Below, piece by piece: positions 6,275 to 54,165 of a DNA stretch of 59,923 nucleotides; position 1 is the first letter of the stretch; each line of letters begins with the position of its first letter. Both the position numbers and the translations under genes were made by a program. Below the pieces are notes generated by a model, which worked only from the letters and a program-made list of their open reading frames with translations, made no database searches and was not told the origin of the DNA. Source of the stretch: a virus (Duplodnaviria > Caudoviricetes); IMG/VR virus record IMGVR_UViG_3300036793_000083, positions 1-59,923 of that record; one strand, written 5' to 3'.

Positions 6275-6630
6275 TACCGGTACACCTCCACATCGACATG
6301 CGCGTCATGTTCGGTCCGTGCCGTGACGACGGGGAAGCTGCACGACGGGCAGAGCCAGTCGCCATCGCGACCGTGGCCCGGCGTGAAGAGGTAGACCGTG
6401 GCCCGGCCGTGATCGCTGTCGTGCGAGCAGACCTCATCGGAGCGTTCATCCATCGCGCCCGGGTCGACCTTGCATCGCGGAATGGACAGGTCGGCCAGTT
6501 GCTTCACCGTCCACAACTGACGGCGGATCTCGGGGAGCACATCGGCCAGCGGGCCGAAGTGAGCGGGCGGGTCGCCCTGCTCGACGTGCTGAATGTGCCG
6601 GGCCTGCTGGTCCACAGTGTCATCTCCCAT
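6274..6630 (-). CDS. Hypothetical protein, first gene after a promoter and leader motif
   Basis: CPSC motif; start at ATG 6630 or GTG 6615. Confidence 0.55.
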   Translation of the reverse strand: MGDDTVDQQARHIQHVEQGDPPAHFGPLADVLPEIRRQLWTVKQLADLSIPRCKVDPGAMDERSDEVCSHDSDHGRATVYLFTPGHGRDGDWLCPSCSFPVVTARTEHDAHVDVEVYR

Positions 6631-6687
6631 GTCGTGCCGACCGTCGCCGACAGTGTTGACACTACAGCATGACGTGCGGCCGGTCAA
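6624..6687 (-). promoter_or_regulatory. Sigma70-type promoter plus GACG-hairpin/GACATGGGAG leader (copy 1)
   Basis: TTGACC-17-TAGTGT; GTCGGC-GACG-GTCGGC-ac-GACATGGGAG. Confidence 0.8.
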
Positions 6688-6693
6688 CGCGAA

Positions 6694-6724
6694 GGCGGGC
6701 CGCCTCACAAGGAAGCGACCCGCC
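6694..6724 (-). terminator. Intrinsic terminator
   Basis: GGCGGGUCGCUUC-loop-GAGGCGGCCCGCC followed by UUCGCGUU, after the stop at 6746. Confidence 0.6.
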
Positions 6725-6745
6725 CGTATGTCCCTGCTGCGAGGA

Positions 6746-7537
6746 CTATCCCGCCTGCGCGGTGGTGGCGGTGAGACGTCGCGACTGGGGTGGCACAAAC
6801 ACCGTGACTTGCGGCTCGGTTTGCTGCCCGGCCGCCGCGTCGAGCAGGCACGGGCCGATGGCGCAGCGATACGACCCGCCGATGGTCGCCACCACGGAGC
6901 GCAGGTGATGGGTGCGGTAGACCGCGACCGGCATCTGCCGGCGACCACCTACCTTGCCGAGCACGCCGAGGTAATCCGCGGTCCAGCCGTGCCCCGTCTC
7001 GGGCAGCACCACGTCCCCGTTGTCATCGGTCACGACCTCGTAGGCCGGACCGTCCAGCGCCTCGATCAGCTTCGCCGGGAACGTCGAGCCGTCGCCGGTC
7101 GTGAAGGCCAGCGCCAGGCCGTTCGGAACCTGCGCCGGATCTTCGCGCACCGTCAGGAGGTCTCCCTGCAGATCCAGTTGGCAGCGGTGCGTGACCTCCT
7201 TGCCGAGGCTGTTTACTAACGGCTTGAACGTGGCAATGACGGCCTTGACGTCCTCCAGCGTGACGAACGCGCTGCGGTGCCACGTGCCGTCAGTCGGGAT
7301 GTGCGCCTGCGCGATGATCGAGGACGTGGTGGACGTGCCCACCAGCAACTCTGTCGGCACCGCCTCGATCAGCGGCACCTCACCGTCATCGCCCGCCACG
7401 TCCATGTCGAACTCGCCGGCTGCGGTGTGCAGGAGCACGCCGTGCGTGCTCGCGAGCTCAGCGGCCGGGCACGCGGTCAGCGCCAGATCCTGCAGCATCC
7501 CGACCAGGTAGCGGGTCGGTGCCGTGACTACAGCCAT
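6746..7537 (-). CDS. Hypothetical protein, possibly a divergent sliding-clamp fold
   Basis: Strong RBS AGGAG; weak resemblance to the beta-clamp pattern. Confidence 0.5.
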   Translation of the reverse strand: MAVVTAPTRYLVGMLQDLALTACPAAELASTHGVLLHTAAGEFDMDVAGDDGEVPLIEAVPTELLVGTSTTSSIIAQAHIPTDGTWHRSAFVTLEDVKAVIATFKPLVNSLGKEVTHRCQLDLQGDLLTVREDPAQVPNGLALAFTTGDGSTFPAKLIEALDGPAYEVVTDDNGDVVLPETGHGWTADYLGVLGKVGGRRQMPVAVYRTHHLRSVVATIGGSYRCAIGPCLLDAAAGQQTEPQVTVFVPPQSRRLTATTAQAG

Positions 7538-7602
7538 GCCGTTCTCCTATTCATCCGGTGGAGGTGGCGCTGCGGTGGCGTCACCCGCTACCATCTCGCG
7601 TT

Positions 7603-7696
7603 AGGGAGTGGTCCGACGGGCAGGTGCAAACCTGGCCCCCGACCCATCCGCCTGTATCTCCATGTCCGGGCGGTTGCGGAGGGGGCGCCACTCCCT
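7603..7696 (+). ncRNA. Putative structured small RNA antisense to the GACAUGGAG leader motif
   Basis: 9-bp closing stem, CAGGU-GCAA-ACCUG GNRA hairpin, long hairpin with loop UAUCUCCAUGUC, short U run after. Possible -10 TACCAT at 7589-7594. Confidence 0.6.
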
Positions 7697-7720
7697 TTAC
7701 TTATGCCCTGCTGTCCTGCC

Positions 7721-8038
7721 TTACGCCGCGCGTCCGACTCCGCAGCCTGCCGATCGTGACGGGTGCGGCGTCGTGACTCGCGTGCCTGCGAACGTCGACA
7801 CCGCCCGCTCCCACTGGCGCGCCGACGGGTCATCGGGCATCGCCCGGCGCACCTCAGCCAGCGCGTGACGCATCACCACTACCTCGATGGGCAGCGCCGA
7901 GCCGTCCACCGGCGTGACGCCCGAGACGAGACGGGCCATCAGGTGACGGTCGCGGGTGGCGTCACGCTCCGACGGGTGGCGCGCCAGGTGCATGTCGAGC
8001 ACGCCGACCAGCACGCCGCGCAGGACGCGGTTGCTCAC
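7721..8038 (-). CDS. Hypothetical protein
   Basis: GTG start; operon packing. Confidence 0.45.
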   Translation of the reverse strand: MSNRVLRGVLVGVLDMHLARHPSERDATRDRHLMARLVSGVTPVDGSALPIEVVVMRHALAEVRRAMPDDPSARQWERAVSTFAGTRVTTPHPSRSAGCGVGRAA

Positions 8039-8156
8039 CTCGCCGGCCACGTCGCACCGTCCTGCGCTGCGCACCAGCCGGTACGCGGATCGTGGTCCAG
8101 CACGCACACCGCACCGTTGGGCCCGGCGGACCCGTGGGCCTCGCGCTCCATATCCA

Positions 8157-8999
8157 TCACCGTCTCCTCATCGGCCAGCCGTCCGCATTGCGCTCGACGT
8201 CATCGGCGCGGGCGGGCAGCGTGCGGATCAACTCATCAGCCTCGGCGCGGGTCGTGACGCCCGCCTCGTGATCGCGCTCGATCTTCTGCTCGGCCCGCGG
8301 GTTGCGGAAGTATTCGGCAAGCTGCAGCGAGTGCGCCCGGTACCACTCGCGCTGAGCGCGGTACAGCCGGCCGAGGTCGCCCGACGCCAGCGTGTTCCAC
8401 GCGTCGATCTGCTCAGGCTTAGGGCCATGCCTGCCGGCTGGCCACGAGGTCGCCGAGCGGCGGGCGAGTATCCAGGCCAGCCGCATCGTCGCCTGCGCAT
8501 CGGCCGCCGCGTCGTGCGCACCGTCCAGGACCACGCCGTAGTGCTTGCAGGTGTCGGCTAGCCGGCGACTGCCCGCCCGGTAGCGGTCGCACATGCGGTC
8601 TATCAGCAGTGTGTCGACCACCGGGGGCAGCGCATCGAGATCCAGCGCGGTGCCGAGGTGGCGGCCCATCTCCCTGTCGATGATCGTCAGGTCGAACGGT
8701 GAGTTACAGGTGATCATCGGGCAATCCTGCGACCACCGGCCGGCGAGTACCTGGCCGATCTCCTCGATCACCTGCGCGACGGGTAGGCCCTCGGCCTGCG
8801 CGCGTTCCGTGGGGTAGCCGTGGATCTTCGCCGCCGCGTCCGGGATCGGGCGGGTCGGCTGCGCCACGAAATCCCATCGCTCGACAAGGCGGCTCGGCAT
8901 GTAATGCATCACCGCGGCAGTGATCAGGTGGGCATCCTCGGGATCCGGACTGTCCGTCTCCAGATCCAGACCGATCAGCGGGCCGTCAATCCAGGCCAT
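8157..8999 (-). CDS. DnaQ-like DEDDh 3'-5' exonuclease
   Basis: DLET, NSPFD and HDAAADA motifs. Confidence 0.9.
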   Translation of the reverse strand: MAWIDGPLIGLDLETDSPDPEDAHLITAAVMHYMPSRLVERWDFVAQPTRPIPDAAAKIHGYPTERAQAEGLPVAQVIEEIGQVLAGRWSQDCPMITCNSPFDLTIIDREMGRHLGTALDLDALPPVVDTLLIDRMCDRYRAGSRRLADTCKHYGVVLDGAHDAAADAQATMRLAWILARRSATSWPAGRHGPKPEQIDAWNTLASGDLGRLYRAQREWYRAHSLQLAEYFRNPRAEQKIERDHEAGVTTRAEADELIRTLPARADDVERNADGWPMRRR

Positions 9000-9796
9000 C
9001 AGGCGCCTGCCTCTTCGGCCGCTGATCGGTCTCGTCCGATGCGGACAACCATCGGGCCGATCTTCTCCTCCTCGCCCGCCTCGTTCACGACCAGCGCGTC
9101 CAAGTGGCGATCGCTCTTCAGCTCGGCGTGTATCTGGAGCAAGCGGCCCTTACTGGTGCGCGGGTCCGTGATCTCGGCGACGTAGGAACTCGGCGCGCGG
9201 GTCGCCTTTTCACCGCGGTCGACGCGGGAGGCGTCCGGGTCCGGGTCGCCCGTGGGGATCAGTCCGCCGCTGAGTAGCAGGACGCGCAGGGCCACGCTCT
9301 GCGCCTTCGCGGTGCCCTTGTCGGCCGAGTCCAGCGCCTCGCCCGAGGACTGCAACTGGATGGTGTCGCCCATCGGGCCGACGATCAGATACGTCACGGT
9401 CACCGTGCACTCGCGCATCTGGCTGCCCTTGCTCGACGTGGTGTCCCGGTGCGCCGCGTCGACATGGATCGGCAGGACCGACACGCCGTGGTTGAGCGTG
9501 ATCGGACCGAACGCGCGCACGACCGTATCCACGCCGCGGAAGTTGTAGCCCGTGTTACCCGCGCTGTACCGCTCTGCCTTCGCGATCGAGCCGATATCGC
9601 GACGCACCCGCAGCCACGCCAGGTGAACCGGGATCTGCTCCGGTTCACCCTCGCCGACGACGTAGGCGGACATGTCGATGCCCGGGGAGACCGGAGCGGG
9701 CGCCTCGGGCGGCAGTGCGGGACCGACGCCACCGGCCAGCGGATTGCGCACGAAGGCTGCCGCTGCCTGCTCGGCGCGCTCGGACAGTGAGGTCAC
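8999..9796 (-). CDS. ERF-family single-strand annealing protein
   Basis: YNFRGVDTVV...GEALDSADKGTAKAQS...IPTGDPDPD. Confidence 0.85.
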   Translation of the reverse strand: MTSLSERAEQAAAAFVRNPLAGGVGPALPPEAPAPVSPGIDMSAYVVGEGEPEQIPVHLAWLRVRRDIGSIAKAERYSAGNTGYNFRGVDTVVRAFGPITLNHGVSVLPIHVDAAHRDTTSSKGSQMRECTVTVTYLIVGPMGDTIQLQSSGEALDSADKGTAKAQSVALRVLLLSGGLIPTGDPDPDASRVDRGEKATRAPSSYVAEITDPRTSKGRLLQIHAELKSDRHLDALVVNEAGEEEKIGPMVVRIGRDRSAAEEAGA

Positions 9797-9903
9797 TTCC
9801 GCCTCCAGCGAATAACCACGGTGGGCAGTGGGCAAACGAAGTGGTAGCTACTCCCGCGGTAGTAACCGATCCACCAGTCATTGGTATCGATGTAGACCCT
9901 CAT
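9793..9903 (-). CDS. 36-aa hypothetical protein (MRVYIDTNDWWIGYYRG...)
   Basis: ATGA and GTGA overlaps at both ends; below the ORF-track cutoff. Confidence 0.6.
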   Translation of the reverse strand: MRVYIDTNDWWIGYYRGSSYHFVCPLPTVVIRWRRK

Positions 9904-10946
9904 CGGGAGTACTCCGCTCTGATCGCGTGCGGGACATAGAAGTGGTCGCCCTCTTCCACGGACACACAGTCCGCGAAGGCTTCGGGGTAGCGCTCGGCGA
10001 GGCGCGCCAGGTCCGTCTTACGGCGCGATCGACGGTCGATCGAATACAGCACGCGGTCGCCTACGGTGGCGGCTTGCGCCTTGCCGAGTGCGGCGTAGAG
10101 CCTGGCCTTCGCCGCGTCCTGTTGTTTCTCGGCCTCGGCCCGCGCCGCGCCGGCTAGCAGGTAGGTGGTGAGCAGGTCTTGCACGTCTAGGTCGCGGTCC
10201 ACCTCGATCACGCCCTGCCGCGTCGGGTGGAGTCGCTGATACAGCTCCACCAGATCATCGGCCGGTTCATCGCCGGTCAGCGGCGGCGGGATGCGCGCCA
10301 CGATGTGCTCGAACCAGAGCCGGGCTGCGCTGGCGTCCAGGAACGCCACCAGGCGCTCATGATCGGAGCGCCGGACGACGTACTGCCGGTAGTCGCTGCC
10401 GCCGATCAGGCACACCACGTGGATGTGGTCCAGGCCGGTGACCAGGATCTGCCAGAGCACCTGCGCCAGCACGTCGTCCGGCGGCCCGTCGCGCCAGAGC
10501 TTGCTCGTAAACGCGTTGCGCGTCTTGACCTCCAGCGCGCAGAGCGAGTGCCTGCTGCGGTCTAGCGGGCACTCTCTGCATAGCCGGTCAAGGCTGCACA
10601 TCTGCCACGTCTCGTGTCGGTGCGCAACGATGCCGATCGGCTCGACGGTCGTCCTGTTCCTGCGCGCCCATTCGAACGCCAACGGCTCCTCGAACAGGAC
10701 GCCGAACCGCATGGCGTCGCTCACGTCGTCGGCGTCGTGGGGAAGCGCGCCCGTCTTGTCGTAGTAGACGTGTAACGGGCTGCGATGGTTCTGGCGCATC
10801 CCGTCGTCGTCTGTCAGTTGCATGATGCTCGGCAAGTCAGAGCTACCGATGCCCTCGCGCCGTTTGTCCAGCCACTCCTCGCGCGGTGCGGTGTGATCCA
10901 GCAGGAGCACGCCCGTGGGCGTGACCAGCGTGCCGACGTCAGCCAT
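9900..10946 (-). CDS. YqaJ / lambda-exonuclease family recombination nuclease
   Basis: WLDKRREGIGSSD, CSLDR, LEVKT, AQVLWQ; next to ERF. Confidence 0.9.
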   Translation of the reverse strand: MADVGTLVTPTGVLLLDHTAPREEWLDKRREGIGSSDLPSIMQLTDDDGMRQNHRSPLHVYYDKTGALPHDADDVSDAMRFGVLFEEPLAFEWARRNRTTVEPIGIVAHRHETWQMCSLDRLCRECPLDRSRHSLCALEVKTRNAFTSKLWRDGPPDDVLAQVLWQILVTGLDHIHVVCLIGGSDYRQYVVRRSDHERLVAFLDASAARLWFEHIVARIPPPLTGDEPADDLVELYQRLHPTRQGVIEVDRDLDVQDLLTTYLLAGAARAEAEKQQDAAKARLYAALGKAQAATVGDRVLYSIDRRSRRKTDLARLAERYPEAFADCVSVEEGDHFYVPHAIRAEYSR

Positions 10947-11143
10947 CACCGTCTCCCGAGAGCTATGTCCGCAACGGAGACACCGAGGCGGAACAGCGCT
11001 ACCCACGCAATGATCCATAGCGGAGTAAGCACCCATATCCACGGCCAGTCGATCACGTGGTCAAGTTTCAATCCGACTAGAAGCACGATCGAAAGGGGAG
11101 CCAGGCTGATAGCTGCCCCGAGGATCTGCGTGCGCTTACTCAT
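10946..11143 (-). CDS. Small membrane protein
   Basis: LKLDHVIDWPWIWVLTPLWI hydrophobic motif, common in phages. Confidence 0.65.
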   Translation of the reverse strand: MSKRTQILGAAISLAPLSIVLLVGLKLDHVIDWPWIWVLTPLWIIAWVALFRLGVSVADIALGRR

Positions 11144-11801
11144 CCCTGCCCGCCAGTACGGTCGTCTTCGTCAGTGCCTCGGCGTCGATCAGCGCCCGCG
11201 TCTCCATGACCCACGCGACGCACATCGTCAGGGCCACCTGTTCGTCCAGGCTCAACAGTCCGAACAGGTCGCTGATCATGCGCTGCGGGACGATCAGGCC
11301 CCGCCGCTCCCGCCACACCCTGCTGTCGCTCGGCGAGGTCAGCACCTCCACTAGCCGCTCCTGCGGTGTGTAGCGCGAGGCGTGGGCGCCGTCGTAGCGC
11401 GGGGAGAGGTGGCCCTGGATCACCCACTGTTCCGACGCCCACGTGTACGACACCCGGCGCACCGCGAAGCCTGTCCATTGCGAGTACCGGGCGCCGGCCG
11501 AGGGCGGGACGATGCCGGCGCGGGCCTGCGTGCTCAGTTCGCTCACGGCCCGCGCCTCGGACAGTCCCACCATCTGCATACCGAGCAGCGTGGCCTCCAC
11601 CGTCTGATGCGAGGGGAATGTCTCGGCCCGCGCGTCGGCCGGCAGCTCACCGAGCCCGCGCAGCAGGCCGAGGGTCGCCAGCTCACCGAGCACCACGGAG
11701 TAACGCTGGCGGCGCCAGTCGAGCCGGGCCGTGATCTCCTGCACTGACAGCCGCTCCTCCAGCAGGGGCAGGAGTCGGGACTGTGCGCCGGTCAGCTGCA
11801 T
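11136..11801 (-). CDS. Hypothetical protein with N-terminal HTH-like segment
   Basis: LTGAQSRLLPLLEERLSVQEITARL. Confidence 0.5.
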   Translation of the reverse strand: MQLTGAQSRLLPLLEERLSVQEITARLDWRRQRYSVVLGELATLGLLRGLGELPADARAETFPSHQTVEATLLGMQMVGLSEARAVSELSTQARAGIVPPSAGARYSQWTGFAVRRVSYTWASEQWVIQGHLSPRYDGAHASRYTPQERLVEVLTSPSDSRVWRERRGLIVPQRMISDLFGLLSLDEQVALTMCVAWVMETRALIDAEALTKTTVLAGRDE

Positions 11802-11842
11802 CGGGGTACTCGCTCTCGCTCAGGTGCGGATGGTCGTGCGCA

Positions 11843-11995
11843 TCATGCGGCATTCAGGATTTCCGCCGCCTGGTCCACCGTCATCAGCACGGGGAAGGGC
11901 TCGGAGTGCACGTCACGCACCCAGGCGCGCAGGATGCGGGCCAGCAGGATGCGGGTGCGGAGGTGGGCCAGAAACCACACGATGATCACTCCCAT
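11843..11995 (-). CDS. Small hypothetical protein after leader motif
   Basis: Hand-translated 45-50 aa ORF ending LMTVDQAAEILNAA. Confidence 0.45.
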   Translation of the reverse strand: MGVIIVWFLAHLRTRILLARILRAWVRDVHSEPFPVLMTVDQAAEILNAA

Positions 11996-12055
11996 GTCGT
12001 CATGTCAGCCCGTCGGCTTGGGGTTGACATTACAGTATCGCGGGAGGTGCGTCTA
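11989..12055 (-). promoter_or_regulatory. Promoter plus leader motif (copy 2)
   Basis: TAGACG-17-TAATGT; AGCC-GACG-GGCT...GACATGGGAG. Confidence 0.75.
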
Positions 12056-12058
12056 CAG

Positions 12059-13360
12059 TTACACCCGGTACGGGTCGCCCGGGATCGCGCGGGCGTAATG
12101 GCCCTCGAACCGCAGGGTCGCGGAACCGGTCGGGCCGTTGCGGTGCTTGTCCACTATCAGCACCATCTCGCCGGGCTTGTCCTCCGGACGCCACGCCAAC
12201 ATCACCTTGTCGGCGTGGTGCTTGATCGCGTCCGTGCCGCGGATATCGGAGTCACCGTCCGGGCGTTTGTCCCGCCGGTCGCTCGGCCCGCGGTTGAGCT
12301 GATGCAACAGCAGAATGGGGACGTCCAGTGCCCGCGCCAGATTCTTTAACGCGCGAGCGATCTGATCCAACTGGACGCGCTCCGGGGCGCGGGGGTCGGC
12401 GGGCTCGATGAACGAGAGCTGATCAACGATCACCAGGCCGAGGCCCTGACTCACGAGGTGGCGACACCGGGTCCGGATATCGGACACCGACGCACCCGCC
12501 ATCTGGTCATCGAGGTACAGCGGCCACTCGGTGATGCGCTCGGATGCCCGCTTCACGCGGTCGCGGTCGTCGTCGGTCAGCCGGTGCTCCGTGAGGTGAG
12601 ACCAGGGCACCGTCGCGACGTCGGCCACCAGCCGGGTTAATAACTCCTCGCGACTCATCTCACCGGACAGGTACGCCGTGGGGACACCGCTGCGGGCGGC
12701 CGAGCGGGCGATGTTCAGGGCCAGCAGTGTCTTACCGGTACTGCTGCGCGCGGCCAGTACGACTAGCTCACCGCGGCGCAGGCCACCGAGCAGCAGGTCA
12801 TCCACCTCGGGCCAGGGTGTCGCGACCACGCCGGCTAGCGGGGCGTCCAGTCCGCCCACGAACTCGCCCATCAGCTCAGCCACCGGTACTCCCGGCGTAT
12901 CCGCCCGGTACTGCTCGACGTCCTCCACCTCGCGGCGCACGAACGCCAGCACGTCGTCCAGCCGGTCAGCGCCACCCGACTCGCCCAACTGGACCAGGCG
13001 CAGGCCACCCTGGACGATCCGGCGCCGTTTCGCATGCTCACCGATCGACTCGGCATCGGCGGCCTGACCGTCCAAGCTCGGCATGTGCTCGACGCTGAAC
13101 AGCGTGTGCAGATACGGGGCACCGCCGATCCTCAGCAGTTCCCCGCATCGGCCTAATTCCCGCGCTACCGACTCCGGGTTTATCGCAATGCCAGCGTCCC
13201 ACAGTGTGGACATGGCGGACCAGATAATGCCGTGTTGCCAGGAAAAGAAATCTTCCGTGCCGATGACGCGGTGCGCCGCCTCGAACGCCGCCGTTGAGAG
13301 CATGGCGCGCCCGAGTACGGCGCGCTCCGCTCCCTCGGCGTGGATCGGATCGCCGCTCAC
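12059..13360 (-). CDS. dnaB: DnaB-like replicative helicase
   Basis: AERAVLG, AARSSTGKT, SGEMS, IVDQL, QLNR, DKHRNGPTG. Confidence 0.95.
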   Translation of the reverse strand: MSGDPIHAEGAERAVLGRAMLSTAAFEAAHRVIGTEDFFSWQHGIIWSAMSTLWDAGIAINPESVARELGRCGELLRIGGAPYLHTLFSVEHMPSLDGQAADAESIGEHAKRRRIVQGGLRLVQLGESGGADRLDDVLAFVRREVEDVEQYRADTPGVPVAELMGEFVGGLDAPLAGVVATPWPEVDDLLLGGLRRGELVVLAARSSTGKTLLALNIARSAARSGVPTAYLSGEMSREELLTRLVADVATVPWSHLTEHRLTDDDRDRVKRASERITEWPLYLDDQMAGASVSDIRTRCRHLVSQGLGLVIVDQLSFIEPADPRAPERVQLDQIARALKNLARALDVPILLLHQLNRGPSDRRDKRPDGDSDIRGTDAIKHHADKVMLAWRPEDKPGEMVLIVDKHRNGPTGSATLRFEGHYARAIPGDPYRV

Positions 13361-13364
13361 ACGG

Positions 13365-14620: not shown

Positions 14621-14630
14621 CAGAGCTTGC

Positions 14631-14655
14631 CTCCATGTCTTCAGGCCGTCGCCTG
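14631..14655 (-). promoter_or_regulatory. Leader motif (copy 3)
   Basis: CAGGC-GACG-GCCTG-aa-GACATGGAG; possible -10 TAAGCT upstream. Confidence 0.75.
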
Positions 14656-14699
14656 TTGTCTCGCCTAGCTTAGCGCGGTGGCGTCAATAGCGCTACCGA

Positions 14700-18411: not shown

Positions 18412-18445
18412 GCCTTACTCCCCGTGTCAAAACCGATAAGCGACC

Positions 18446-35930: not shown

Positions 35931-36030
35931 CTCCATGTCGTCTGCGCCCCGTCGGGCGGGAATTCTGCGGTGACACTGGCTTATCGGTCCCGCCACTGTT
36001 GACGTTACAGCGGCCATATCGGCGAGTCAA
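35931..36030 (-). promoter_or_regulatory. Promoter plus leader motif (copy 4)
   Basis: TTGACT-17-TAACGT; CGCCC-GACG-GGGCG-cagac-GACATGGAG. Confidence 0.8.
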
Positions 36031-47027: not shown

Positions 47028-47036
47028 GGAGAGACC

Positions 47037-47342: not shown

Positions 47343-47965
47343 AGCCGAACTCCGGGAACGATATCCAGGCATCCCAGATGGGCGGGGACGTCGCGGGCAT
47401 CACCGGCACCGCCACCGCCACCACTGCGACGTCCCTGACCGGCACGGGAACTCCGTTCGTCGCCTCGGCCTATATCGGGCACATGGTCGTGGCGGGCAGC
47501 GTGTACGGCGTGATCACCGCGAACACGACCTCCGTGCTGACCGTGGGCGAGTGGCTGACCGCGAACGCACCCGGCACCGTCGCCTCCACGCCCGGGGCTA
47601 CCTCGACGTTCGTGATCCTGCCCGGCAACGCGCCCGCCTGGTATCACGCCCTGACCGCCGACGCCACCACGCCCGCCAGTGGCGACACCACGCTGCCCAG
47701 TGAGATCACCACGGCGGCTGGCGGATTGAAACGCAAGCCGGCCACCTACGCCCATACGACCGGTGCGAACAGTTACACCCTCACGACGGTGTTCACGGCC
47801 AACGCCTCGGACACGCTGCCGGTGACGATCGCGAAGGGCGGCACGTTCCAAACTCTCACCGGCGCCACGGGTAAGCCCCTGTACGAGACGCTACTGACGC
47901 CGGCCACAGCCACCCTGTCCGCGAGCGGCGATCAGCTCACCGTCACGCAGACCGTCACGACCTAG
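47339..47965 (+). CDS. Thr-rich virion/fibre-associated protein
   Basis: DTTLPSEIT..GGLKRKPATYAHT.G...YTL, GDQLTVT. Confidence 0.6.
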   Translation: MKPNSGNDIQASQMGGDVAGITGTATATTATSLTGTGTPFVASAYIGHMVVAGSVYGVITANTTSVLTVGEWLTANAPGTVASTPGATSTFVILPGNAPAWYHALTADATTPASGDTTLPSEITTAAGGLKRKPATYAHTTGANSYTLTTVFTANASDTLPVTIAKGGTFQTLTGATGKPLYETLLTPATATLSASGDQLTVTQTVTT

Positions 47966-47982
47966 CAGGCGGGAGGGCAGGC

Positions 47983-49968: not shown

Positions 49969-49970
49969 AG

Positions 49971-50026
49971 CGGCCCACCGAGGCCGGATCGTCTGGGGGA
50001 CGGGGAACGGGTTGCTCGGTGGGCCG
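49971..50026. terminator. Inverted repeat at the convergence of late and early transcription
   Basis: CGGCCCACCGAG / CTCGGTGGGCCG, 12 bp. Confidence 0.5.
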
Positions 50027-50041
50027 TGATCAGCGTAGCGG

Positions 50042-50266
50042 TCAGGCTGGCGGCGGCGCGAAGATACTGGTCAGGTTCGGCGCGATGTTGAACGGACCGA
50101 ACGGCCCCACATTCACGTTCACTGGCACCTGACACACCAGCGACGAGAGCAGTGGGTAGCAGGTCACCGGAGTCGGCGCGGGCGTCGCCGTGTCGGCCAG
50201 CGCGATACCGCTCACGCCGAGCGTTGCTACCGCTACCAGCGCGACGAGACAGCCGAGACGGCGCAT
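50042..50266 (-). CDS. Small secreted hydrophobic protein with 2 mature Cys
   Basis: Signal peptide ALA|D; QVPVNVNV; TGATG coupling. Confidence 0.6.
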   Translation of the reverse strand: MRRLGCLVALVAVATLGVSGIALADTATPAPTPVTCYPLLSSLVCQVPVNVNVGPFGPFNIAPNLTSIFAPPPA

Positions 50267-50544
50267 CACTTGAACAGCGCCGTAACTTTGCCCATCAGGG
50301 CCTCGGCCACGCCGAGCATCGCCCACGGGCCAGCGCTGGTCACCTTTTTCATCTCGCCGGGCAGGCCCTGCAGTGCGGTCAACAGTTGGTGGATGAACTG
50401 CTGCGTACCGGCGTCGGGGATCGCGCCCACGATCTCGTCCACCGTCACGTGACCGTCGGCAAGCGCGAGCTTGATCGACCCGGCGCTCTCGAACAGGTCG
50501 GTGAGCAGCAGGTTTAAATCCGGATAATCAGTTTCGAAAGACAC
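50266..50544 (-). CDS. Hypothetical protein
   Basis: RBS GGGGAGG. Confidence 0.65.
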   Translation of the reverse strand: MSFETDYPDLNLLLTDLFESAGSIKLALADGHVTVDEIVGAIPDAGTQQFIHQLLTALQGLPGEMKKVTSAGPWAMLGVAEALMGKVTALFK

Positions 50545-50605
50545 GGGAACCCTCCCCTAGTCGGCATGATCCGCAGGGGAGGGTAACCCGATCGGTGGCG
50601 TCTAT

Positions 50606-50860
50606 TCAGTGGTCACGCGTGTCAGGCCGCTCCGGACGAAACCCCGTCTTCAGGTGGCCGGATGATCCCATTCGGGCCAGCCGGGCGGCCAGCGTGATGT
50701 TCTGCCCACGCCGGGCGGCCAGCTCCTGCACCTGATCCAGCGGGTATCCGCGCACCTCGCTGATGCCGCGTCGCGACAGCTCCCGGCGGGCTGATGCTGC
50801 CGAGCCGAGGCCGAGCAGTTCCGCGGCGCGCTCGCCCGAGATCAGACCGTGGTCACTCAT
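50606..50860 (-). CDS. Small HTH-like protein
   Basis: ISGERAAELLGLGSAASARRELSRRGI. Confidence 0.55.
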   Translation of the reverse strand: MSDHGLISGERAAELLGLGSAASARRELSRRGISEVRGYPLDQVQELAARRGQNITLAARLARMGSSGHLKTGFRPERPDTRDH

Positions 50861-51129
50861 GACGTGCCCTGCCTTCCTAGTTTGTCCGTGCGGGCGTGAA
50901 CCTCGCGCCGTTGCTCGGCAGTGAGTCCGCCGAAGATCCCCGACTTCGGCCGCTCCCTCAGCGCCCACTCGCGGCACTCGATGAGACTCGGGCAGTGGCG
51001 GCATATGGCCTTCGCCTGCCTGGCCCTGGCCTGCGCGCCTGCGGGACCGTCGGAAAAGAACAGATCCGGGTCCTCATCGCGGCAGGCTGCGACGTGGCGC
51101 CAGTCGTCGGTCGCAGCCTCGCCGGTCAT
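50857..51129 (-). CDS. WhiB-family transcription factor
   Basis: W...AACRDEDPDLFF...AKAICRHCP...ECREWAL...GIFGGLTAEQR. Confidence 0.93.
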   Translation of the reverse strand: MTGEAATDDWRHVAACRDEDPDLFFSDGPAGAQARARQAKAICRHCPSLIECREWALRERPKSGIFGGLTAEQRREVHARTDKLGRQGTS

Positions 51130-51338
51130 GACACCTTCGCCGCTCTCATGCACTCGGCGTGAGCGGTGGACTGTGCCCATACCAGCTGGGCAGTCGCGTC
51201 CACAAGGTGCTGATGTGTGACGCGCGAGCGGGTGCCGTGACCGGCTACGACCCGGCGTCGGATCAGTGCCGTGCTCTGCTCGATCAGGGCGGCGATCTCG
51301 GCACAGTCGCCGAGGTGGCCCGTCTGCGTTTCGTGCAT
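51126..51338 (-). CDS. Hypothetical protein after leader motif
   Basis: ATG 6 nt after GACATGGAG. Confidence 0.55.
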   Translation of the reverse strand: MHETQTGHLGDCAEIAALIEQSTALIRRRVVAGHGTRSRVTHQHLVDATAQLVWAQSTAHAECMRAAKVS

Positions 51339-51344
51339 GTCCGT

Positions 51345-51368
51345 CTCCATGTCTCTGCCCCGTCGGGC
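51345..51368 (-). promoter_or_regulatory. Leader motif (copy 5), intra-operonic
   Basis: GCCC-GACG-GGGC-aga-GACATGGAG directly after a stop codon, with no promoter. Confidence 0.75.
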
Positions 51369-51374
51369 CAGTTG

Positions 51375-51848
51375 CTAGCTGAGGTAGCGCTTCGCCATGC
51401 TGCGGATGACGTCCTCACCGACGCGGGCCGAGCCGGTGCGCTGCGCGTCGCGCTCGATGCAGGTCTCTAGCGGCACGTCGGTAAAGTCGACCAGTTCCCA
51501 CCGTCCCCCGCCGCGCTCGATCGTCGCCTGCTGTGCGCGGAGGTAGCCGGGGTTCAGGTTGGTCGCGTCCAGGATGACGTCCACCCTGCGGATGAGTAGC
51601 AGGATCAGCGCGGCGTCGATCATGTCCGTGATGATGTTCTCGAACGTCGGAACGGTCGGGCCGTAGCCGACGGTCATCATGGCCCGCATGTCGTCGCGGG
51701 ACAGTCGCACCAGTCGCTTAGGGTCCTCGCCCGCATCGAGGTGACGCTGGATCTCGGCCCGCGCCCACGAGGTCTTCCCGCAGCCGGGCAGTCCGACGGT
51801 GATCCGGACCAGCGGACGCCTGCACTTGCCGGTCCACGTCTCGCTCAT
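51375..51848 (-). CDS. Polynucleotide-kinase-like P-loop kinase (AAA_33)
   Basis: GLPGCGKT, LSRDDMR, VILDATNL, DVPLETCIERDAQR. Confidence 0.85.
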   Translation of the reverse strand: MSETWTGKCRRPLVRITVGLPGCGKTSWARAEIQRHLDAGEDPKRLVRLSRDDMRAMMTVGYGPTVPTFENIITDMIDAALILLLIRRVDVILDATNLNPGYLRAQQATIERGGGRWELVDFTDVPLETCIERDAQRTGSARVGEDVIRSMAKRYLS

Positions 51849-52060
51849 GACTTGCCCTCCAGCCAGTCCGCGCGGGCCAGCAGGTCGGCGGCGATCGCGC
51901 GCAGCTTCGCCGGGTCGTTGAACAGCACGTGCCCGCCCATGCGCACCTCGCGGCCGAACGCGTCGCAACTGTCCACGAGGTATTGGCTGCCGTTGCCGTC
52001 GTCCGTGACGATGAGGTACTGCGGGGTGGCCGTAGTCGGCTCGTTCTGTGTCTCGCTCAT
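51845..52060 (-). CDS. Hypothetical protein (leaderless)
   Basis: Promoter directly upstream. Confidence 0.6.
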   Translation of the reverse strand: MSETQNEPTTATPQYLIVTDDGNGSQYLVDSCDAFGREVRMGGHVLFNDPAKLRAIAADLLARADWLEGKS

Positions 52061-52066
52061 GGGACA

Positions 52067-52095
52067 AGTATGCCGCGCAGCGCGGCAGGTGTCAA
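52067..52095 (-). promoter_or_regulatory. Sigma70-type leaderless promoter
   Basis: TTGACA-17-CATACT, 6 nt before ATG 52060. Confidence 0.7.
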
Positions 52096-52625
52096 GCCGC
52101 TAGGTCGTACTGCTGCGCGCGCAACATGTCGCGATACTCGCGCTGCGCCACTGCCAGCGACTTCGGCACACGGCGGGGGTTGTCCAGGTTGAACGTGTGG
52201 TTATGCAGCGGGCGGCGCCACCGGATGTTGACCGCCTCGCGCCGGTCCAATAGGGCCTCGGGCATCCGGTGCCACCACGGCAGGGTGTGCCAACTGGTCA
52301 CCAGATCCGCCCACGGTTGCGCGGGTGCCCCCCAGTGGTCCGAGCCGTACAGGTGCTCTCGGATGCGCTCAGCGGCGTCACGGTGGCGCGTCTGCCCGAC
52401 GTAGAGCAGGACGTGGCGACGGATGCGCAGCGCGGCCAGCAGGCGACGCCACCACGGCAGGTATCCGCCTAGCTCGCGGATCACGTCCAGGTGGCGCCGG
52501 CCATACACGACGTACACGTACCCCGGACGCAACGAGCGCCACCATCGCACCGTCAGCCATCCGCCGAGCACGATCGAGGCCAGTCCGACCAGCGCGAGAA
52601 TGACCAGCATCGTCGTCGCGTCCAT
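52092..52625 (-). CDS. Membrane-anchored GIY-YIG-like protein
   Basis: N-terminal TM; GYVY...LYVGQT...RIREH...E..NI....PLHN. Confidence 0.65.
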   Translation of the reverse strand: MDATTMLVILALVGLASIVLGGWLTVRWWRSLRPGYVYVVYGRRHLDVIRELGGYLPWWRRLLAALRIRRHVLLYVGQTRHRDAAERIREHLYGSDHWGAPAQPWADLVTSWHTLPWWHRMPEALLDRREAVNIRWRRPLHNHTFNLDNPRRVPKSLAVAQREYRDMLRAQQYDLAA

Positions 52626-52924
52626 CAGAACGCCCCCACGTACGTGATCAGGTGCCACGCCACGTAGGCCAGCATCCCCACGACGAACAGAAATCCGACG
52701 GCGGTGGACGCCATCGCGATACGGAACGGCCAGAGCGAGTAGCGGAATCGGACGTGAGCACGCGCGACCGGATCCGGCCCGTCATCCTGCTCGGCCTCGA
52801 TCAGCGCGCCGTCCTCGCGCGAGGCCATTCTGCACGCCTCGCAATCATCGCTCAGCGCGTGCAGCCAGCAGTCCCACGGATCAGTCCGACCCTCGGGACA
52901 TACCGGCCGCTCCCCCGTCGTCAT
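52625..52924 (-). CDS. Cys-containing membrane protein
   Basis: Cys/His cluster plus C-terminal TM. Confidence 0.55.
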   Translation of the reverse strand: MTTGERPVCPEGRTDPWDCWLHALSDDCEACRMASREDGALIEAEQDDGPDPVARAHVRFRYSLWPFRIAMASTAVGFLFVVGMLAYVAWHLITYVGAF

Positions 52925-52927
52925 GGC

Positions 52928-53080
52928 TCAGCCGCTCGCGATCGTTTGGGCGAAGGTGATGGCCGACGTAAATGCAGTGTGCACGAAGTGCCCGGCCATC
53001 GCGGGATTAGTGAACACGTATCCGAGCAGGAACAGCACGAACACCCACCATAGAACCGTGCCGAAGTGGAACCGTGGCAT
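52928..53080 (-). CDS. 50-aa membrane protein
   Basis: Hand-translated MPRFHFGTVLWWVFVLFLLGYVFTNP...; RBS GGGAGG. Confidence 0.6.
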   Translation of the reverse strand: MPRFHFGTVLWWVFVLFLLGYVFTNPAMAGHFVHTAFTSAITFAQTIASG

Positions 53081-53094
53081 GACGCCCTCCCTCT

Positions 53095-53298
53095 CTACTT
53101 AGCGTGCCGATCTGCGGACCTCGACTGTCTACCGACGGCCAAGCCTTCCATCCTGGCGACCGCCATGCAGACGCAGAGGATGAGTGAGAACGGGAGTCCC
53201 GTCCACCACGAAGTGGACCCGCGCAATAGCCAGTGAGCGGACACCAGGGCGATCACGCCGAGGATAAGTGCCACCTCCGAGTGCCTGAGTTTCATCAC
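53095..53298 (-). CDS. 2-TM membrane protein
   Basis: Hydrophobic ORF. Confidence 0.55.
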   Translation of the reverse strand: MMKLRHSEVALILGVIALVSAHWLLRGSTSWWTGLPFSLILCVCMAVARMEGLAVGRQSRSADRHAK

Positions 53299-53474
53299 AC
53301 GCGCTCCGTATCAATTTATGGGGACCAGGGGGCGCAGGTGCCGGACGGCTGTTGCTCGCAACCGCATGGTCGGCCCTTGCCCTGATGCGATGAAGGGTTT
53401 AACGCCTCGCACTGGTCCCTATGTGGTGACCTGGCCGTAGCGGGCGGCCACGGTCACGTGGTCTATGGAGTTGG

Positions 53475-53624
53475 TCAGCCTTCGTCGCAGTAGCGACAGC
53501 CTTCATAGCACTCAACGAGGGTGATGTATCCGCCACACTCGCAGTTATTTTCCGCGTCCTCGGGGTCGTACTCCGCGTCGCAATCGCCGCACCTGCCGAA
53601 GCACTCTAGGATGTAGTCAATCAT
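53475..53624 (-). CDS. Acidic 8-Cys microprotein (paralog B)
   Basis: MIDYILECFGRCGDCDAEYDPEDAENNCECGGYITLVECYEGCRYCDEG. Confidence 0.75.
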   Translation of the reverse strand: MIDYILECFGRCGDCDAEYDPEDAENNCECGGYITLVECYEGCRYCDEG

Positions 53625-53714
53625 CTCAGTCCGTCCGGTGAGCCTTCCATAAGTCGATCAGGCCGAGTGTGGTGATGGTGCCGATGAGGGCGCCTGAGTA
53701 GATCAGTACGAGGA

Positions 53715-53861
53715 TCACTCGCGCACGTCCTCGCAGAAATCGCAACCATCGACGCACGCGACCAGTTGAATCACGCCGCCGCACTCGCACTCTGCGTCAT
53801 GCTCGTCCGGGTCGTACTCGCTCGCGCACTCGTCGCACTCGCCGTAGCACTCTTCGTCCAC
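53715..53861 (-). CDS. Acidic 8-Cys microprotein (paralog A)
   Basis: MDEECYGECDECASEYDPDEHDAECECGGVIQLVACVDGCDFCEDVRE. Confidence 0.75.
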   Translation of the reverse strand: MDEECYGECDECASEYDPDEHDAECECGGVIQLVACVDGCDFCEDVRE

Positions 53862-53864
53862 GTC

Positions 53865-54098
53865 TCAGCCCTCGCAGTACTGGCAGCCGTTACCGTCGCA
53901 CCACACGCACGGGTCTGGGAATACCGCCGTGAACGTGCCGCTCAGGTGGTCGCGGATGACAGTCGTGGCGTTCGGAGTCAGGGCATCGTTCACGTAGACA
54001 TTCTCGTGACCGTCCAGGGCAATGAGCTGATCCACTAGGGCCAGCACTGCAGCCTTATCCACGCCGAACTCACGTGCGATTGTTTCGATCTCGTCCAT
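53865..54098 (-). CDS. Early hypothetical protein, C-terminal CxxC...CxxC
   Basis: First gene after the promoter and leader motif. Confidence 0.65.
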   Translation of the reverse strand: MDEIETIAREFGVDKAAVLALVDQLIALDGHENVYVNDALTPNATTVIRDHLSGTFTAVFPDPCVWCDGNGCQYCEG

Positions 54099-54103
54099 TG
54101 GCC

Positions 54104-54165
54104 CTCCATGTCTCGGCCCGTCGGCCTGTAGTGACGACAGTACCGACGCGGCGCGGATGTGTCAA
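54104..54165 (-). promoter_or_regulatory. Promoter plus leader motif (copy 6)
   Basis: TTGACA-17-TACTGT; GGCC-GACG-GGCC-ga-GACATGGAG. Confidence 0.8.

What the first reader, a model, noticed from the sequence alone, without database searches (positions are those of the whole stretch)
6624..54126. Six-copy leader element: co-varying cGACGg hairpin plus GACAUGG(G)AG
Seen on the minus strand at 6624-6651, 11989-12018, 14631-14655, 35931-35958, 51345-51368 and 54104-54126. The loop C-GACG-G is invariant. The stems differ yet always pair: GUCGGC/GUCGGC, AGCC/GGCU, CAGGC/GCCUG, CGCCC/GGGCG, GCCC/GGGC, GGCC/GGCC. This points to selection on RNA structure. Each is followed 2-8 nt later by GACATGG(G)AG overlapping the RBS. 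Four copies lie just after 17-bp-spaced promoters and one is intra-operonic. Known analogues are cluster K mycobacteriophage start-associated sequences and lambda boxA/boxB nut sites. Inference: a protein- and/or sRNA-recognised translational or antitermination element.
Basis: partly seen in the sequence, partly recalled or inferred. Interest (0 to 1): 0.75.

Follow-up and report, generated by a model that had tools for sequence, protein, structure and literature searches.

The report
Covarying hairpin-plus-RBS leader of phage genes
An uncultured actinobacterial phage starts six non-structural genes with the same small RNA module, a hairpin at the predicted mRNA 5' end plus an unusually conserved ribosome-binding box, which resembles the unexplained "start-associated sequences" of mycobacteriophages but has base-pairing that is clearly under selection.

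Summary
All six minus-strand copies exist at the stated coordinates (6 observed, 0.27 expected). The C-GACG-G loop is invariant, and the stems differ yet pair (27 of 30 cells, 0/500 shuffles).

The window is a complete, circularly permuted 59.9-kb actinophage genome. Its only accessible distant relative with non-structural genes is a 104-kb IMG/VR phage (G001). G001 carries the same module about 30 times as GACACGGAGG. Eighteen of 28 listed sites (27 GACACGGAGG, one GACACGGAGA) have an upstream hairpin with an RCGG loop.

Hairpins go with promoter-like motifs (13/18 against 0/10 box-only sites). They begin 5-7 nt after the -10 hexamer, so they sit at the predicted 5' end of the transcript. Internal G.U pairs (6) with no A.C pairs point to RNA rather than DNA.

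The element matches no Rfam family and is not a Streptomyces leader. GACAY does not extend Shine-Dalgarno pairing.

Best reading: a portable 5'-UTR cassette that combines a 5'-terminal hairpin with an extended RBS. It controls stability and translation of non-structural genes and is probably read by an unidentified factor. It is a structured variant of the SAS/ESAS kind of element. The mechanism is untested.

The parts
6624..6652 (-). Copy 1. Hairpin UGUCGGC-GACG-GUCGGCA (6652-6635) with two G.U pairs. Box GACATGGGAG 6633-6624. GTG start 6615-6613, 113-aa ORF of unknown function.
6659..6687 (-). Sigma-70-like promoter of copy 1: TTGACC (6687-6682), 17 nt, TAGTGT (6664-6659). The -10 ends 6 nt before the hairpin.
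11989..12018 (-). Copy 2. Hairpin AGCC-GACG-GGCU (12018-12007). An 8-nt spacer that holds a partial box duplicate (GACATGAC). Box GACATGGGAG 11998-11989. GTG start 11980, 45-aa ORF.
12027..12062 (-). Promoter-like motifs of copy 2: TAGACG-N17-TAATGT (12055-12027), overlapping GTAACT-N17-CGATA (12062-12036, the 'class B' motif shared with G001).
14631..14655 (-). Copy 3. Hairpin CAGGC-GACG-GCCUG (14655-14642). Box GACATGGAG 14639-14631. ATG at 14620 opens a 41-codon ORF with low GC3 that overlaps the start of the DNA pol III beta-clamp gene. TTGACG at 14687-14682 has no convincing -10.
35931..35958 (-). Copy 4. Hairpin CGCCC-GACG-GGGCG (35958-35945). Box GACATGGAG 35939-35931. ATG 35924, 136-aa ORF. 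This is a lone leftward gene inside the rightward structural module.
35982..36030 (-). Promoter-like motifs of copy 4: TTGACT-N17-TAACGT (36030-36002) and GTAACG-N17-CGATA (36008-35982).
51345..51368 (-). Copy 5. Hairpin GCCC-GACG-GGGC (51368-51357), 6 nt after the TAG stop (51377-51375) of the kinase-like gene. Box GACATGGAG 51353-51345. ATG 51338, 70-aa ORF followed by a WhiB-like gene. No promoter motif.
54104..54126 (-). Copy 6. Hairpin GGCC-GACG-GGCC (54126-54115). Box GACATGGAG 54112-54104. ATG 54098, 77-aa ORF.
54137..54165 (-). Sigma-70-like promoter of copy 6: TTGACA (54165-54160), 17 nt, TACTGT (54142-54137). The -10 ends 10 nt before the hairpin.
7658..7666 (-). Box-only copy, GACATGGAG, in the 184-nt gap upstream of gene 6746-7537. 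It has no GACG hairpin, and only a 20-codon ORF starting at the box ATG (7663) follows.
18418..18428 (-). Diverged box GACACGGGGAG, 6 nt before the ATG of gene 18178-18411. It is preceded by a different hairpin whose loop lacks RCGG. A possible degenerate copy.

Best explanation
The element is a portable, RNA-level 5'-UTR cassette used by non-structural (early or middle) genes of this phage lineage. It has two parts.

(1) The box. An extended ribosome-binding box, GACAYGGAG(G), sits 5-10 nt before the start codon. Its GGAG(G) is the Shine-Dalgarno sequence. The GACAY part is conserved but cannot pair with 16S rRNA.

(2) The hairpin. A 4-8 bp hairpin of free stem sequence lies 1-8 nt upstream. 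Its loop ends in RCGG: C-GACG-G in this phage, mostly U-GCGG-A in the relative.

The hairpin is present where a promoter precedes the gene. It starts at about +1 of the predicted transcript, so it would be a base-paired 5' terminus.

Proposed working:
- The 5'-terminal hairpin shields the primary transcript from 5'-end-dependent decay and displays the RCGG loop.
- The loop and the box both contain an RYGG word (ACGG or GCGG in loops, AUGG or ACGG in boxes).
- One trans-acting factor, from the phage or the host, reads both. This gives the non-structural genes a common control of translation initiation, either boosting it or shutting it off.

Shown here: reality of the element, covariation, the promoter link, position relative to starts, and conservation in a distant relative.

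Inferred: that transcripts begin at the hairpin, that the hairpin stabilises them, and that a dedicated factor exists.
For: - Enrichment: 6 observed against 0.27 expected.
- Stems pair through different sequences. The six window copies give 27/30 cells paired, covariation 0.76 against 0.215, 0/500 shuffles. Adding eight G001 tetraloop copies gives 56/56 paired cells in the inner four pairs, every pair changed on both sides, 0/500 shuffles.
- Relative G001 shares structural proteins at 45-61% identity. It has 27 GACACGGAGG sites, and CCTCCGTGTC is its commonest 10-mer.
- An RCGG-loop hairpin lies within 10 nt upstream of 15/27 G001 boxes against 13/222 other GGAG-start sites (p = 8e-10). In the window the figures are 6/9 against 7/91 (p = 1e-4).
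- The first genes downstream are not homologous between the two phages, so the cassette is portable.
- Promoter link: 13/18 hairpin sites in G001 carry a promoter-like motif against 0/10 box-only sites (p = 2.5e-4).
- The -10 hexamer ends 5-7 nt before the stem in 7 G001 sites, and 6, 8 and 10 nt before it in window sites 1, 2 and 6.
- Two promoter classes feed the same leader.
- Strand-specific pairing: 6 internal G.U pairs and 0 internal A.C pairs in the RCGG hairpins.
- All copies point the same way as the downstream gene, and none lies in the rightward structural module.
- GACAY does not extend pairing with the 16S 3' tail read from a Streptomyces genome. No complement of the box exists in that 16S.
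Against: - No transcription start, RNA half-life, or binding partner has been measured.
- No RNA-binding protein was recognised among 77 window ORFs or 98 G001 ORFs.
- The two unknown proteins shared by both phages that I checked gave no lead to RNA binding.
- Leader folding energies are not better than shuffles (z from +0.31 to -1.0).
- A generic best-stem search allowing A.C pairs instead of G.U found stems just as long in G001 (mean 5.52 against 5.26). The strand-asymmetry argument therefore rests on only six internal G.U pairs, read off the listing.
- Copy 5 has a hairpin without a promoter. Copy 4 has its sigma-70-like promoter 45 nt away. Five of 18 G001 hairpins have no recognised promoter.
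- The G001 hairpins were chosen by a hairpin finder (8 of 18 hairpin sites, out of 27 boxes), so their pairing percentage is biased upward. The six window copies were chosen by sequence pattern only.
- Only two independent lineages could be compared.
Confidence: 0.5

Rival explanations
1. A purely cis-acting leader with no dedicated factor. The hairpin is only a 5'-end stabiliser, and the box is only a strong, unstructured ribosome-binding site that was copied along with it.
For: - The hairpin lies at the predicted +1.
- GGAG(G) lies at canonical spacing from the start codon.
- No partner protein was found.
Against: - It does not explain why the loop (RCGG) and the non-pairing GACAY are conserved across about 35 copies and two phages at about 50% protein identity, while the stems drift freely.
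- GACAY does not pair with the anti-SD tail.
Confidence: 0.2
2. An endonuclease target. The hairpin and GGAG box mark a cleavage site. Cleavage either matures polycistronic mRNA into hairpin-capped units or inactivates early mRNAs at the SD, as T4 RegB does (RegB behaviour recalled, not read here).
For: - Copy 5 and several G001 copies lie inside operons, where processing would create a new 5' end.
- GGAG is invariant.
- The element is restricted to non-structural genes.
Against: - No nuclease candidate linked to the element was found.
- The stems are too short for RNase III.
- Most hairpins already sit at predicted primary 5' ends.
Confidence: 0.1
3. A DNA-level element: an operator or promoter-proximal site bound by a transcription factor. 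This is what has been proposed for the inverted repeats of cluster K ESAS.
For: - Tight coupling to promoters at constant distance.
- The ESAS precedent (passages in PMC3203893 and PMC11373665).
- Both phages encode WhiB-like regulators.
Against: - The arms have no conserved sequence, yet complementarity is kept. This is the reverse of a half-site operator.
- There are G.U but no A.C pairs inside stems.
- The conserved centre is asymmetric.
- The box is fixed relative to the start codon, not to the promoter, and also occurs without any promoter.
Confidence: 0.07
4. A transcription antitermination or pausing RNA that acts on RNA polymerase just after initiation, in the manner of lambda nut or HK022 put (both recalled).
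For: - Position directly downstream of promoters.
- A hairpin with a conserved loop plus a conserved linear box.
Against: - The linear box is fused to the SD and start codon.
- Box-only copies sit at internal gene starts.
- No boxA-like sequence, N-like protein or NusG-like protein was detected by Pfam.
- The terminator-like scans of 1-20,000 and 40,000-59,923 found no more sites than in shuffles.
Confidence: 0.07

Closest known systems
[quoted passage not shown]
   Same: - A short asymmetric motif that contains the SD core but is conserved beyond what 16S pairing explains.
- The motif lies a few nt before the start codons of a subset of genes.
- It is confined to non-structural genes and to one orientation.
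- About half the copies carry an additional upstream inverted-repeat feature tied to a sigma-70-like promoter.
- The genes served are unrelated to one another.
- The function is unknown.
   Different: - The motif sequence differs (GACAYGGAG against GGGATAGGAGCCC).
- Here the inverted repeat is a short hairpin downstream of the -10, with a conserved loop and freely varying, compensating arms.
[quoted passage not shown]
SAS/ESAS-like motifs of cluster EF Microbacterium phages (PMC7302621, passages read)
   Same: - Ten copies of a 13-bp RBS-position motif, each with a weakly conserved upstream extension.
- Independent of cluster K in sequence, which shows that this kind of feature recurs in actinophages.
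   Different: - The consensus is GGGAAAGGACCCC.
- The upstream part is centred on a conserved GTAGAG word.
- No hairpin was reported.
CsrA/RsmA-type targets (recalled from general knowledge, not read here)
   Same: - Bipartite architecture: one recognition word in the loop of a short upstream hairpin and a second overlapping the SD.
- The box matches A-N-GGA.
   Different: - The window's loops lack GGA (0 of 6).
- No CsrA domain was found in 77 window ORFs or 98 G001 ORFs.
5'-terminal stabiliser stem-loops such as the E. coli ompA leader, the T7 gene 10 leader and the B. subtilis aprE leader (recalled)
   Same: A hairpin at the very 5' end of the transcript followed by a strong RBS.
   Different: Those are single-gene features with no shared conserved loop. 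Here a family of about 6-30 copies per genome shares loop and box sequence.
Lambda nut sites (boxA and boxB; recalled)
   Same: A hairpin recognised through its loop plus a conserved linear box, downstream of early promoters.
   Different: - The order is reversed.
- The box is the RBS.
- Copies occur at internal gene starts.
- No N-like partner was found.

Membership tests
SAS/ESAS-type start-associated elements (kind of feature, not a sequence family) | A conserved asymmetric motif at the RBS position, a few nt before the start codons of a subset of genes | tested here: met
   GGAG lies 5-10 nt before ATG or GTG in all 6 window copies and in most of the 28 listed G001 box sites (an ORF of at least 25 codons starts within 10-29 nt of the box start at 26 of 28).
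SAS/ESAS-type start-associated elements (kind of feature, not a sequence family) | Conservation beyond what pairing with the 16S rRNA 3' end explains | tested here: met
   The 16S 3' end of a Streptomyces genome reads ...GGATCACCTCCTTTCT. The GACAY positions would face UUUCU and give no contiguous extension. The host of this phage is unknown, so the 16S is a stand-in.
SAS/ESAS-type start-associated elements (kind of feature, not a sequence family) | Restricted to non-structural genes, in one orientation relative to the gene | tested here: met
   All copies are on the coding strand of leftward non-structural genes, plus one lone leftward gene at 35.9 kb. None is in the rightward structural module. 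The pattern is the same in G001.
Cluster K SAS (sequence family) | 13-bp consensus GGGATAGGAGCCC with at most 2 departures | tested here: not met
   The box is GACAYGGAG(G) and shares only GGAG with that consensus (consensus taken from PMC3203893).
Cluster K ESAS | A pair of about 17-bp imperfect inverted repeats with a conserved half-site sequence that enclose or overlap a SigA-like promoter | tested here: not met
   The arms are 4-8 nt, have no conserved sequence, and lie downstream of the -10.
Lambda-type nut site | A boxA-like linear element upstream of a boxB hairpin, with an N-type antiterminator | tested here: not met
   The conserved linear box lies downstream of the hairpin and is fused to the SD. 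There is no N-like or NusG-like Pfam hit. The boxA consensus is recalled, not taken from a call.
CsrA/Rsm target | GGA in the hairpin loop and at the SD, with a CsrA-family protein present | tested here: not met
   Loop GGA occurs in 0/6 window copies. No CsrA domain was found among the ORFs scanned. Small ORFs under about 40 aa were not all scanned.
5'-terminal stabiliser hairpin | The hairpin begins within a few nt of the transcript's 5' end | not testable with these tools
   Only predicted. The -10 hexamer ends 5-7 nt before the stem in 7 G001 copies, and 6, 8 and 10 nt before it in window copies 1, 2 and 6. No transcription start data are available.
Intrinsic terminator | A G+C-rich hairpin followed by a U tract | tested here: not met
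   No T run follows any copy. None was listed by the terminator scans of 1-20,000 and 40,000-59,923, which cover five of the six copies. The scan of 20,000-40,000, which holds copy 4, returned an error, so copy 4 rests on direct reading.
Any Rfam family | A match at the gathering threshold | tested here: not met
   0 matches in the window and 0 in G001.

The most novel reading that the evidence does not exclude
The hairpin loop (RCGG) and the RBS box (RYGG-AG) are two binding sites for a single, still unknown RNA-binding factor, which defines a phage-wide translational regulon. Every primary transcript of the non-structural genes would carry a 5'-terminal 'tag' hairpin and every tagged cistron a matching RBS word. 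One protein, perhaps an actinobacterial or actinophage functional analogue of CsrA in a phylum I recall as lacking CsrA (not checked here), could then switch the whole early programme on or off. If so, this would be the first mechanistic handle on the SAS/ESAS class of actinophage elements, whose role was still described as unknown in the passages I read from the 2011, 2020, 2024 and 2025 papers.
Probability: 0.3. Interest if true: 0.78.

Novelty: new variant of a known kind. Interest (0 to 1): 0.6.

Why it matters
Start-associated sequences were described in 2011. In the passages I read from the 2024 and 2025 papers (PMC11373665, PMC12699233), their roles are still called unknown or in need of experimental verification.

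This lineage offers a cleaner case for four reasons:
- The upstream part is demonstrably an RNA hairpin, with compensating stems and a conserved loop.
- The hairpin sits at the predicted transcript 5' end and appears only where a promoter does.
- The RBS box also occurs alone at internal cistrons.
- Two promoter classes feed the same leader. In the relative, one class looks ECF-sigma-dependent, and that relative encodes an ECF sigma factor.

This separates the transcriptional and post-transcriptional parts of such cassettes. It also gives short, portable sequences (about 35 nt) that can be tested directly in Streptomyces reporters. If they work, they could serve as defined expression parts for high-G+C actinomycetes.

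Tried and rejected
(1) Box AUG as the real start codon, or a CAU:AUG mini-hairpin. The AUG is in frame with the ORF in 4 of 6 copies, but the relative has ACG at that position. Rejected.

(2) GACAY as an SD extension, or pairing elsewhere in 16S. Rejected.

(3) A host-type leader. Five actinomycete genomes (51.9 Mb) gave 29 pattern matches against 8 for the reversed pattern. Of the 10 sites fetched, only 1 had a stem of 4 bp or more, and none resembled the element.

(4) A known RNA family. None was found.

(5) Close relatives:
- None in the phage collection.
- None as prophages in GTDB genomes.
- The SsgA-based search found nothing.
- The beta-clamp search of IMG/VR found nothing.
- The single metagenome scan returned only cellular DnaB genes, because the generated patterns were generic.
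- The P0004 query found only distant loci.
- The loader alignment added contigs that lack any enrichment of the box.

The one recurrent family was the cyanophage manA RNA.

(7) A covariance model was not built. MAFFT could not keep the arms in register once the variable spacer and box were included. I used fixed-geometry windows and scripts instead.

(8) Search for a trans factor:
- Pfam, PHROGs and NCBIfam on window ORFs.
- PDB sequence searches of the two shared unknown proteins.
- An Atlas lead for the protein at 6746-7537, pointing to a viral clamp-like protein.
- Pfam on 98 G001 ORFs.
No RNA binder was recognised.

(9) A generic G.U-against-A.C stem comparison was not discriminating.

(10) An apparent extra copy at 15435(-) lies inside the helicase-loader coding sequence (VDSEEVF) and was dismissed.

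(11) Searches of the earlier-findings index found nothing on this genome or motif.

(12) Literature: no paper holding 'start associated sequences' together with 'Streptomyces phage' describes such a motif in Streptomyces phages (one hit, on Microbacterium phages). The motif strings occur only as unrelated primers or aptamers in the 20 of 1,929 hits listed.

Full report
**What the window is**

The 59,923-base window is a whole virus record. A C-5 cytosine methylase gene runs across its ends (1245..1 continuing into 59921..59433), so the sequence is circularly permuted.

G+C is 66-71%. Pfam finds these proteins:
- DnaB
- a DNA polymerase III beta clamp
- an IstB-like helicase loader
- ERF and YqaJ recombination proteins
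- SSB and RusA
- an SsgA-like and a WhiB-like protein
- a terminase containing a LAGLIDADG domain

This is the gene content of a phage of a sporulating actinomycete.

Genes at about 19.4-50 kb run rightward and are structural or lysis genes. Those at 19.4 kb down to 1, continuing from 59.9 to 50.3 kb, run leftward and are non-structural. There are no tRNAs and no Rfam matches.

The six sites read exactly as described.

- CGACGG-N4-20-GACATGG occurs 6 times against 0.27 expected, with 0 of 100 shuffles reaching 6.
- CGACGG by itself is at chance level (152 against 144.5).
- All six have stems of 4-7 bp closing on C-GACG-G. Only 10 of the other 146 CGACGG sites do.
- Genome-wide there are 16 such hairpins against 8.9 +/- 2.9 in shuffles. 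The six with the box are all intergenic and on the coding strand.
- On the six alone, which were picked by sequence pattern and not by pairing, 27 of 30 cells pair and three pairs change on both sides. The covariation score is 0.76 against 0.215 +/- 0.105, with 0/500 shuffles as high. Sliding the partner columns destroys the signal.
- RNAfold places the hairpin in the MFE structure of every leader, but the energies are not better than shuffles (z from +0.31 to -1.0).

There is also a box-only copy at 7658-7666. A diverged box, GACACGGGGAG, lies at 18418-18428. A scan allowing two mismatches found no further convincing copy. A look-alike at 15435 lies inside the loader coding sequence.

**Promoters in the window**

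TTGAC-N17-TAnnGT occurs three times in the genome, each time upstream of a copy (sites 1, 4 and 6). A TAGAC version precedes site 2.

- The -10 ends 6 nt before the stem at site 1, 8 nt at site 2 and 10 nt at site 6.
- At site 4 the gap is 45 nt.
- Site 3 has TTGACG without a credible -10.
- Site 5 follows a stop codon by 6 nt.

Not every promoter carries the element. TTGACA-N17-CATACT at 52095-52067 lies 6 nt before an ATG and has no leader.

**Relatives**

No near relative exists in the phage collection or as a prophage in GTDB genomes.

Protein searches showed DnaB relatives at 45-57% identity on phage-sized contigs. Only one could be fetched: IMG/VR record G001, 104,286 bp with terminal repeats. 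It shares portal, capsid-region, tail, terminase, DnaB, loader, WhiB and kinase-like proteins at 32-61% identity.

A 44-kb record, G006, is close to G001. It shows two orthologous copies with the hairpin unchanged. In one of them the flanks differ from G001.

**The same module in G001**

The commonest 10-mer in G001 is the reverse complement of GACACGGAGG. There are 27 exact sites and 28 GACAYGGAG sites, on both strands. All lie outside the structural module except one lone leftward gene inside it. Most lie within about 5-14 nt of a start codon.

Eighteen of these are preceded, 1-6 nt upstream, by a hairpin of 5-8 bp. The arms differ from copy to copy. The loops are GCGG (8), AGCGG or AGCGGA (4), GACGG (2), AACGG (2), CGACGGA (1) and CAGCGGU (1). 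The shared feature with the window's GACG-G is an RCGG word at the 3' side of the loop.

A stricter automatic count gives 15/27 boxes with such a hairpin, against 13/222 other GGAG-start sites (p = 8e-10). In the window the count is 6/9 against 7/91.

I combined the six window copies with the eight GCGG tetraloops in fixed 20-nt windows. The inner four pairs are paired in 56/56 cells, and every one of the eight pairs shows double-sided changes. The closing pair itself switches: C-G 6, U-A 6, U.G 2. Covariation is 0.79 against 0.24, with 0/500 shuffles as high.

One caveat applies. The G001 copies in that alignment were chosen with a hairpin finder and are 8 of 18.

Because the box reads ACG in G001 where the window reads AUG, the box AUG is neither a start codon nor a pairing partner of the start codon.

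**RNA or DNA**

The arms carry no conserved sequence while complementarity is kept. That is the opposite of a half-site operator.

Within the RCGG hairpins I count six internal G.U pairs and no internal A.C pair. This fits pairing on the sense strand only.

A generic best-stem search was not discriminating, however. Allowing A.C instead of G.U gave stems as long in G001 (5.52 against 5.26). This argument is therefore suggestive, not decisive.

**The hairpin marks promoters, the box marks starts**

In G001, 13 of 18 hairpin sites carry a promoter-like motif, against 0 of 10 box-only sites (p = 2.5e-4). The motifs lie at a constant distance from the box.

There are two classes.
- Class A is TTGAC-N16/17-TAnnnT. 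It ends 5-7 nt before the first stem base in seven copies. This places +1 at the foot of the stem.
- Class B is GTAAC(A/G)-N17-CGATAC. It occurs 16 times in G001, and 6 of these feed an element directly. It looks ECF-sigma-like.

G001 encodes an ECF-type sigma factor. The window does not (tblastn E > 0.4). It still has three class B-like matches, two of them at copies 2 and 4. With so few matches, this could be chance.

The first genes behind the elements share no homology between the two phages. The module is therefore a portable cassette, not part of a gene family.

**What it is not**

- It has no U tract, so it is not an intrinsic terminator. No T run follows any copy. The scans of 1-20,000 and 40,000-59,923 list none of the five copies they cover. 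The scan of the middle third failed.
- It matches no Rfam family.
- It is not a general Streptomyces leader. Five actinomycete genomes totalling 51.9 Mb gave 29 pattern matches, about 0.6 per Mb against 100 per Mb in the phage. The ten sites I fetched lack the hairpin.
- GACAY cannot extend pairing with the 16S 3' tail ...GGAUCACCUCCUUUCU, read from a Streptomyces genome. That 16S holds no complement of the box. The true host is unknown.

**How it most likely works**

I commit to an RNA-level 5'-UTR cassette.

- The hairpin forms the base-paired 5' terminus of primary transcripts. I infer that this protects them from 5'-end-dependent decay. The precedents for 5' stem-loop stabilisers are recalled from E. 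coli and B. subtilis work, not read here.
- The box is an extended ribosome-binding site.
- The loop and the GACAY part are conserved, although the stems drift and 16S cannot pair with GACAY. I therefore think a sequence-specific factor reads them.
- Both the loop (ACGG or GCGG) and the box (AUGG or ACGG) contain an RYGG word. This suggests one factor with two sites, as in CsrA-type control (recalled).

No such factor was identified.

My probabilities:
- About 0.85 that this is a selected RNA-level cis element.
- About 0.5 for the cassette-plus-factor mechanism.
- 0.2 for a cis-only stabiliser plus strong RBS.
- 0.1 for a cleavage site.
- 0.07 each for a DNA operator and for an antitermination RNA.

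**Comparison with what is known**

[quoted passage not shown] They are 13-bp RBS-position motifs at 11-19 non-structural genes. About half have upstream inverted repeats (PMC3203893, passages read).

[quoted passage not shown] A 2024 paper reads the ESAS as a SigA-like promoter plus an inverted repeat and still calls the roles of SAS and ESAS unknown (PMC11373665, passages read). Cluster EF Microbacterium phages have an independent analogue (PMC7302621, passages read). A 2025 survey of 188 cluster K genomes states that the function still needs experimental verification (PMC12699233, passages read).

The present element shares the architecture and genomic distribution. It differs in sequence and in having a true covarying hairpin downstream of the -10. 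It works like an SAS/ESAS but is not a member of those sequence families.

In the searchable library, my searches found no description of this motif or of SAS-like elements in Streptomyces-type phages. Supplementary figures of the cited papers are PDFs that I could not read. Subscription journals are outside the library.

**Verdict**

It is a new, RNA-structured variant of a known but unexplained kind of actinophage regulatory cassette. The mechanism is inferred, not shown.

Noticed in passing
window 54186-54379: Two facing arrays of 12-bp-period repeats lie just upstream of the copy-6 promoter: CGGGGTA about 6 times, then TACCCCG about 6-7 times. They look like iterons of a replication origin or a multi-site protein-binding array.
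   Followed up: partly
window 55026-55145: A 41-nt inverted repeat, 88% complementary and rich in (CAAA)n/(GTTT)n, with a 38-nt centre. It lies in the gap between genes 55146-56762 and 54468-55013.
   Followed up: no
window 1-1245 and 59433-59921 (minus strand): A C-5 cytosine DNA methylase gene runs across the ends of the record. The genome is therefore circularly permuted and its coordinate origin is arbitrary.
   Followed up: partly
window 52067-52095 (minus strand): TTGACA-N17-CATACT lies only 6 nt before the ATG of gene 51375-52067. This is a candidate leaderless transcript, and it lacks the hairpin/box leader.
   Followed up: no
G001 (L209-L214); sigma gene at G001 87304-87954 (minus strand): The relative encodes an ECF-type sigma factor. 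It carries 16 copies of GTAAC(A/G)-N17-CGATAC, a likely phage-specific promoter class. Six of the 16 drive the hairpin/box leader directly. The window has three such motifs (45353, 36008 and 12062, minus strand) but no sigma homologue.
   Followed up: partly
IMG/VR loci L042, L063, L068, L107, L043, L002 (L039 also in the same conserved family but without an Rfam hit): Low-G+C viral contigs that matched the search pattern by accident share a conserved structured region. Rfam identifies it as manA RNA (RF01745). It is unrelated to the element studied.
   Followed up: yes
window 20024-22819 (plus strand); G001 DnaB at 82507-84900: The large terminase of the window and the DnaB of the relative each contain a LAGLIDADG/homing-endonuclease domain. 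These are probably inteins sitting in different genes in the two phages.
   Followed up: no
window 14495-14620 (minus strand): The ORF directly behind copy 3 has only 41 codons and a low GC3 (0.64). It overlaps the start of the beta-clamp gene by 4 nt. It may be a coupling or leader ORF rather than a protein gene.
   Followed up: partly
window 11999-12006 (minus strand): The spacer of copy 2 holds a partial tandem duplicate of the box (GACATGAC followed by GACATGGGAG).
   Followed up: no
window 5239-5994 and 50857-51180; G001 53556-54008 and 39600-39869: Both phages encode SsgA-like and WhiB-like proteins, which are regulators of host cell division and development. In both phages the WhiB-like gene is the second gene behind a hairpin/box leader, although the first genes are unrelated.
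   Followed up: partly
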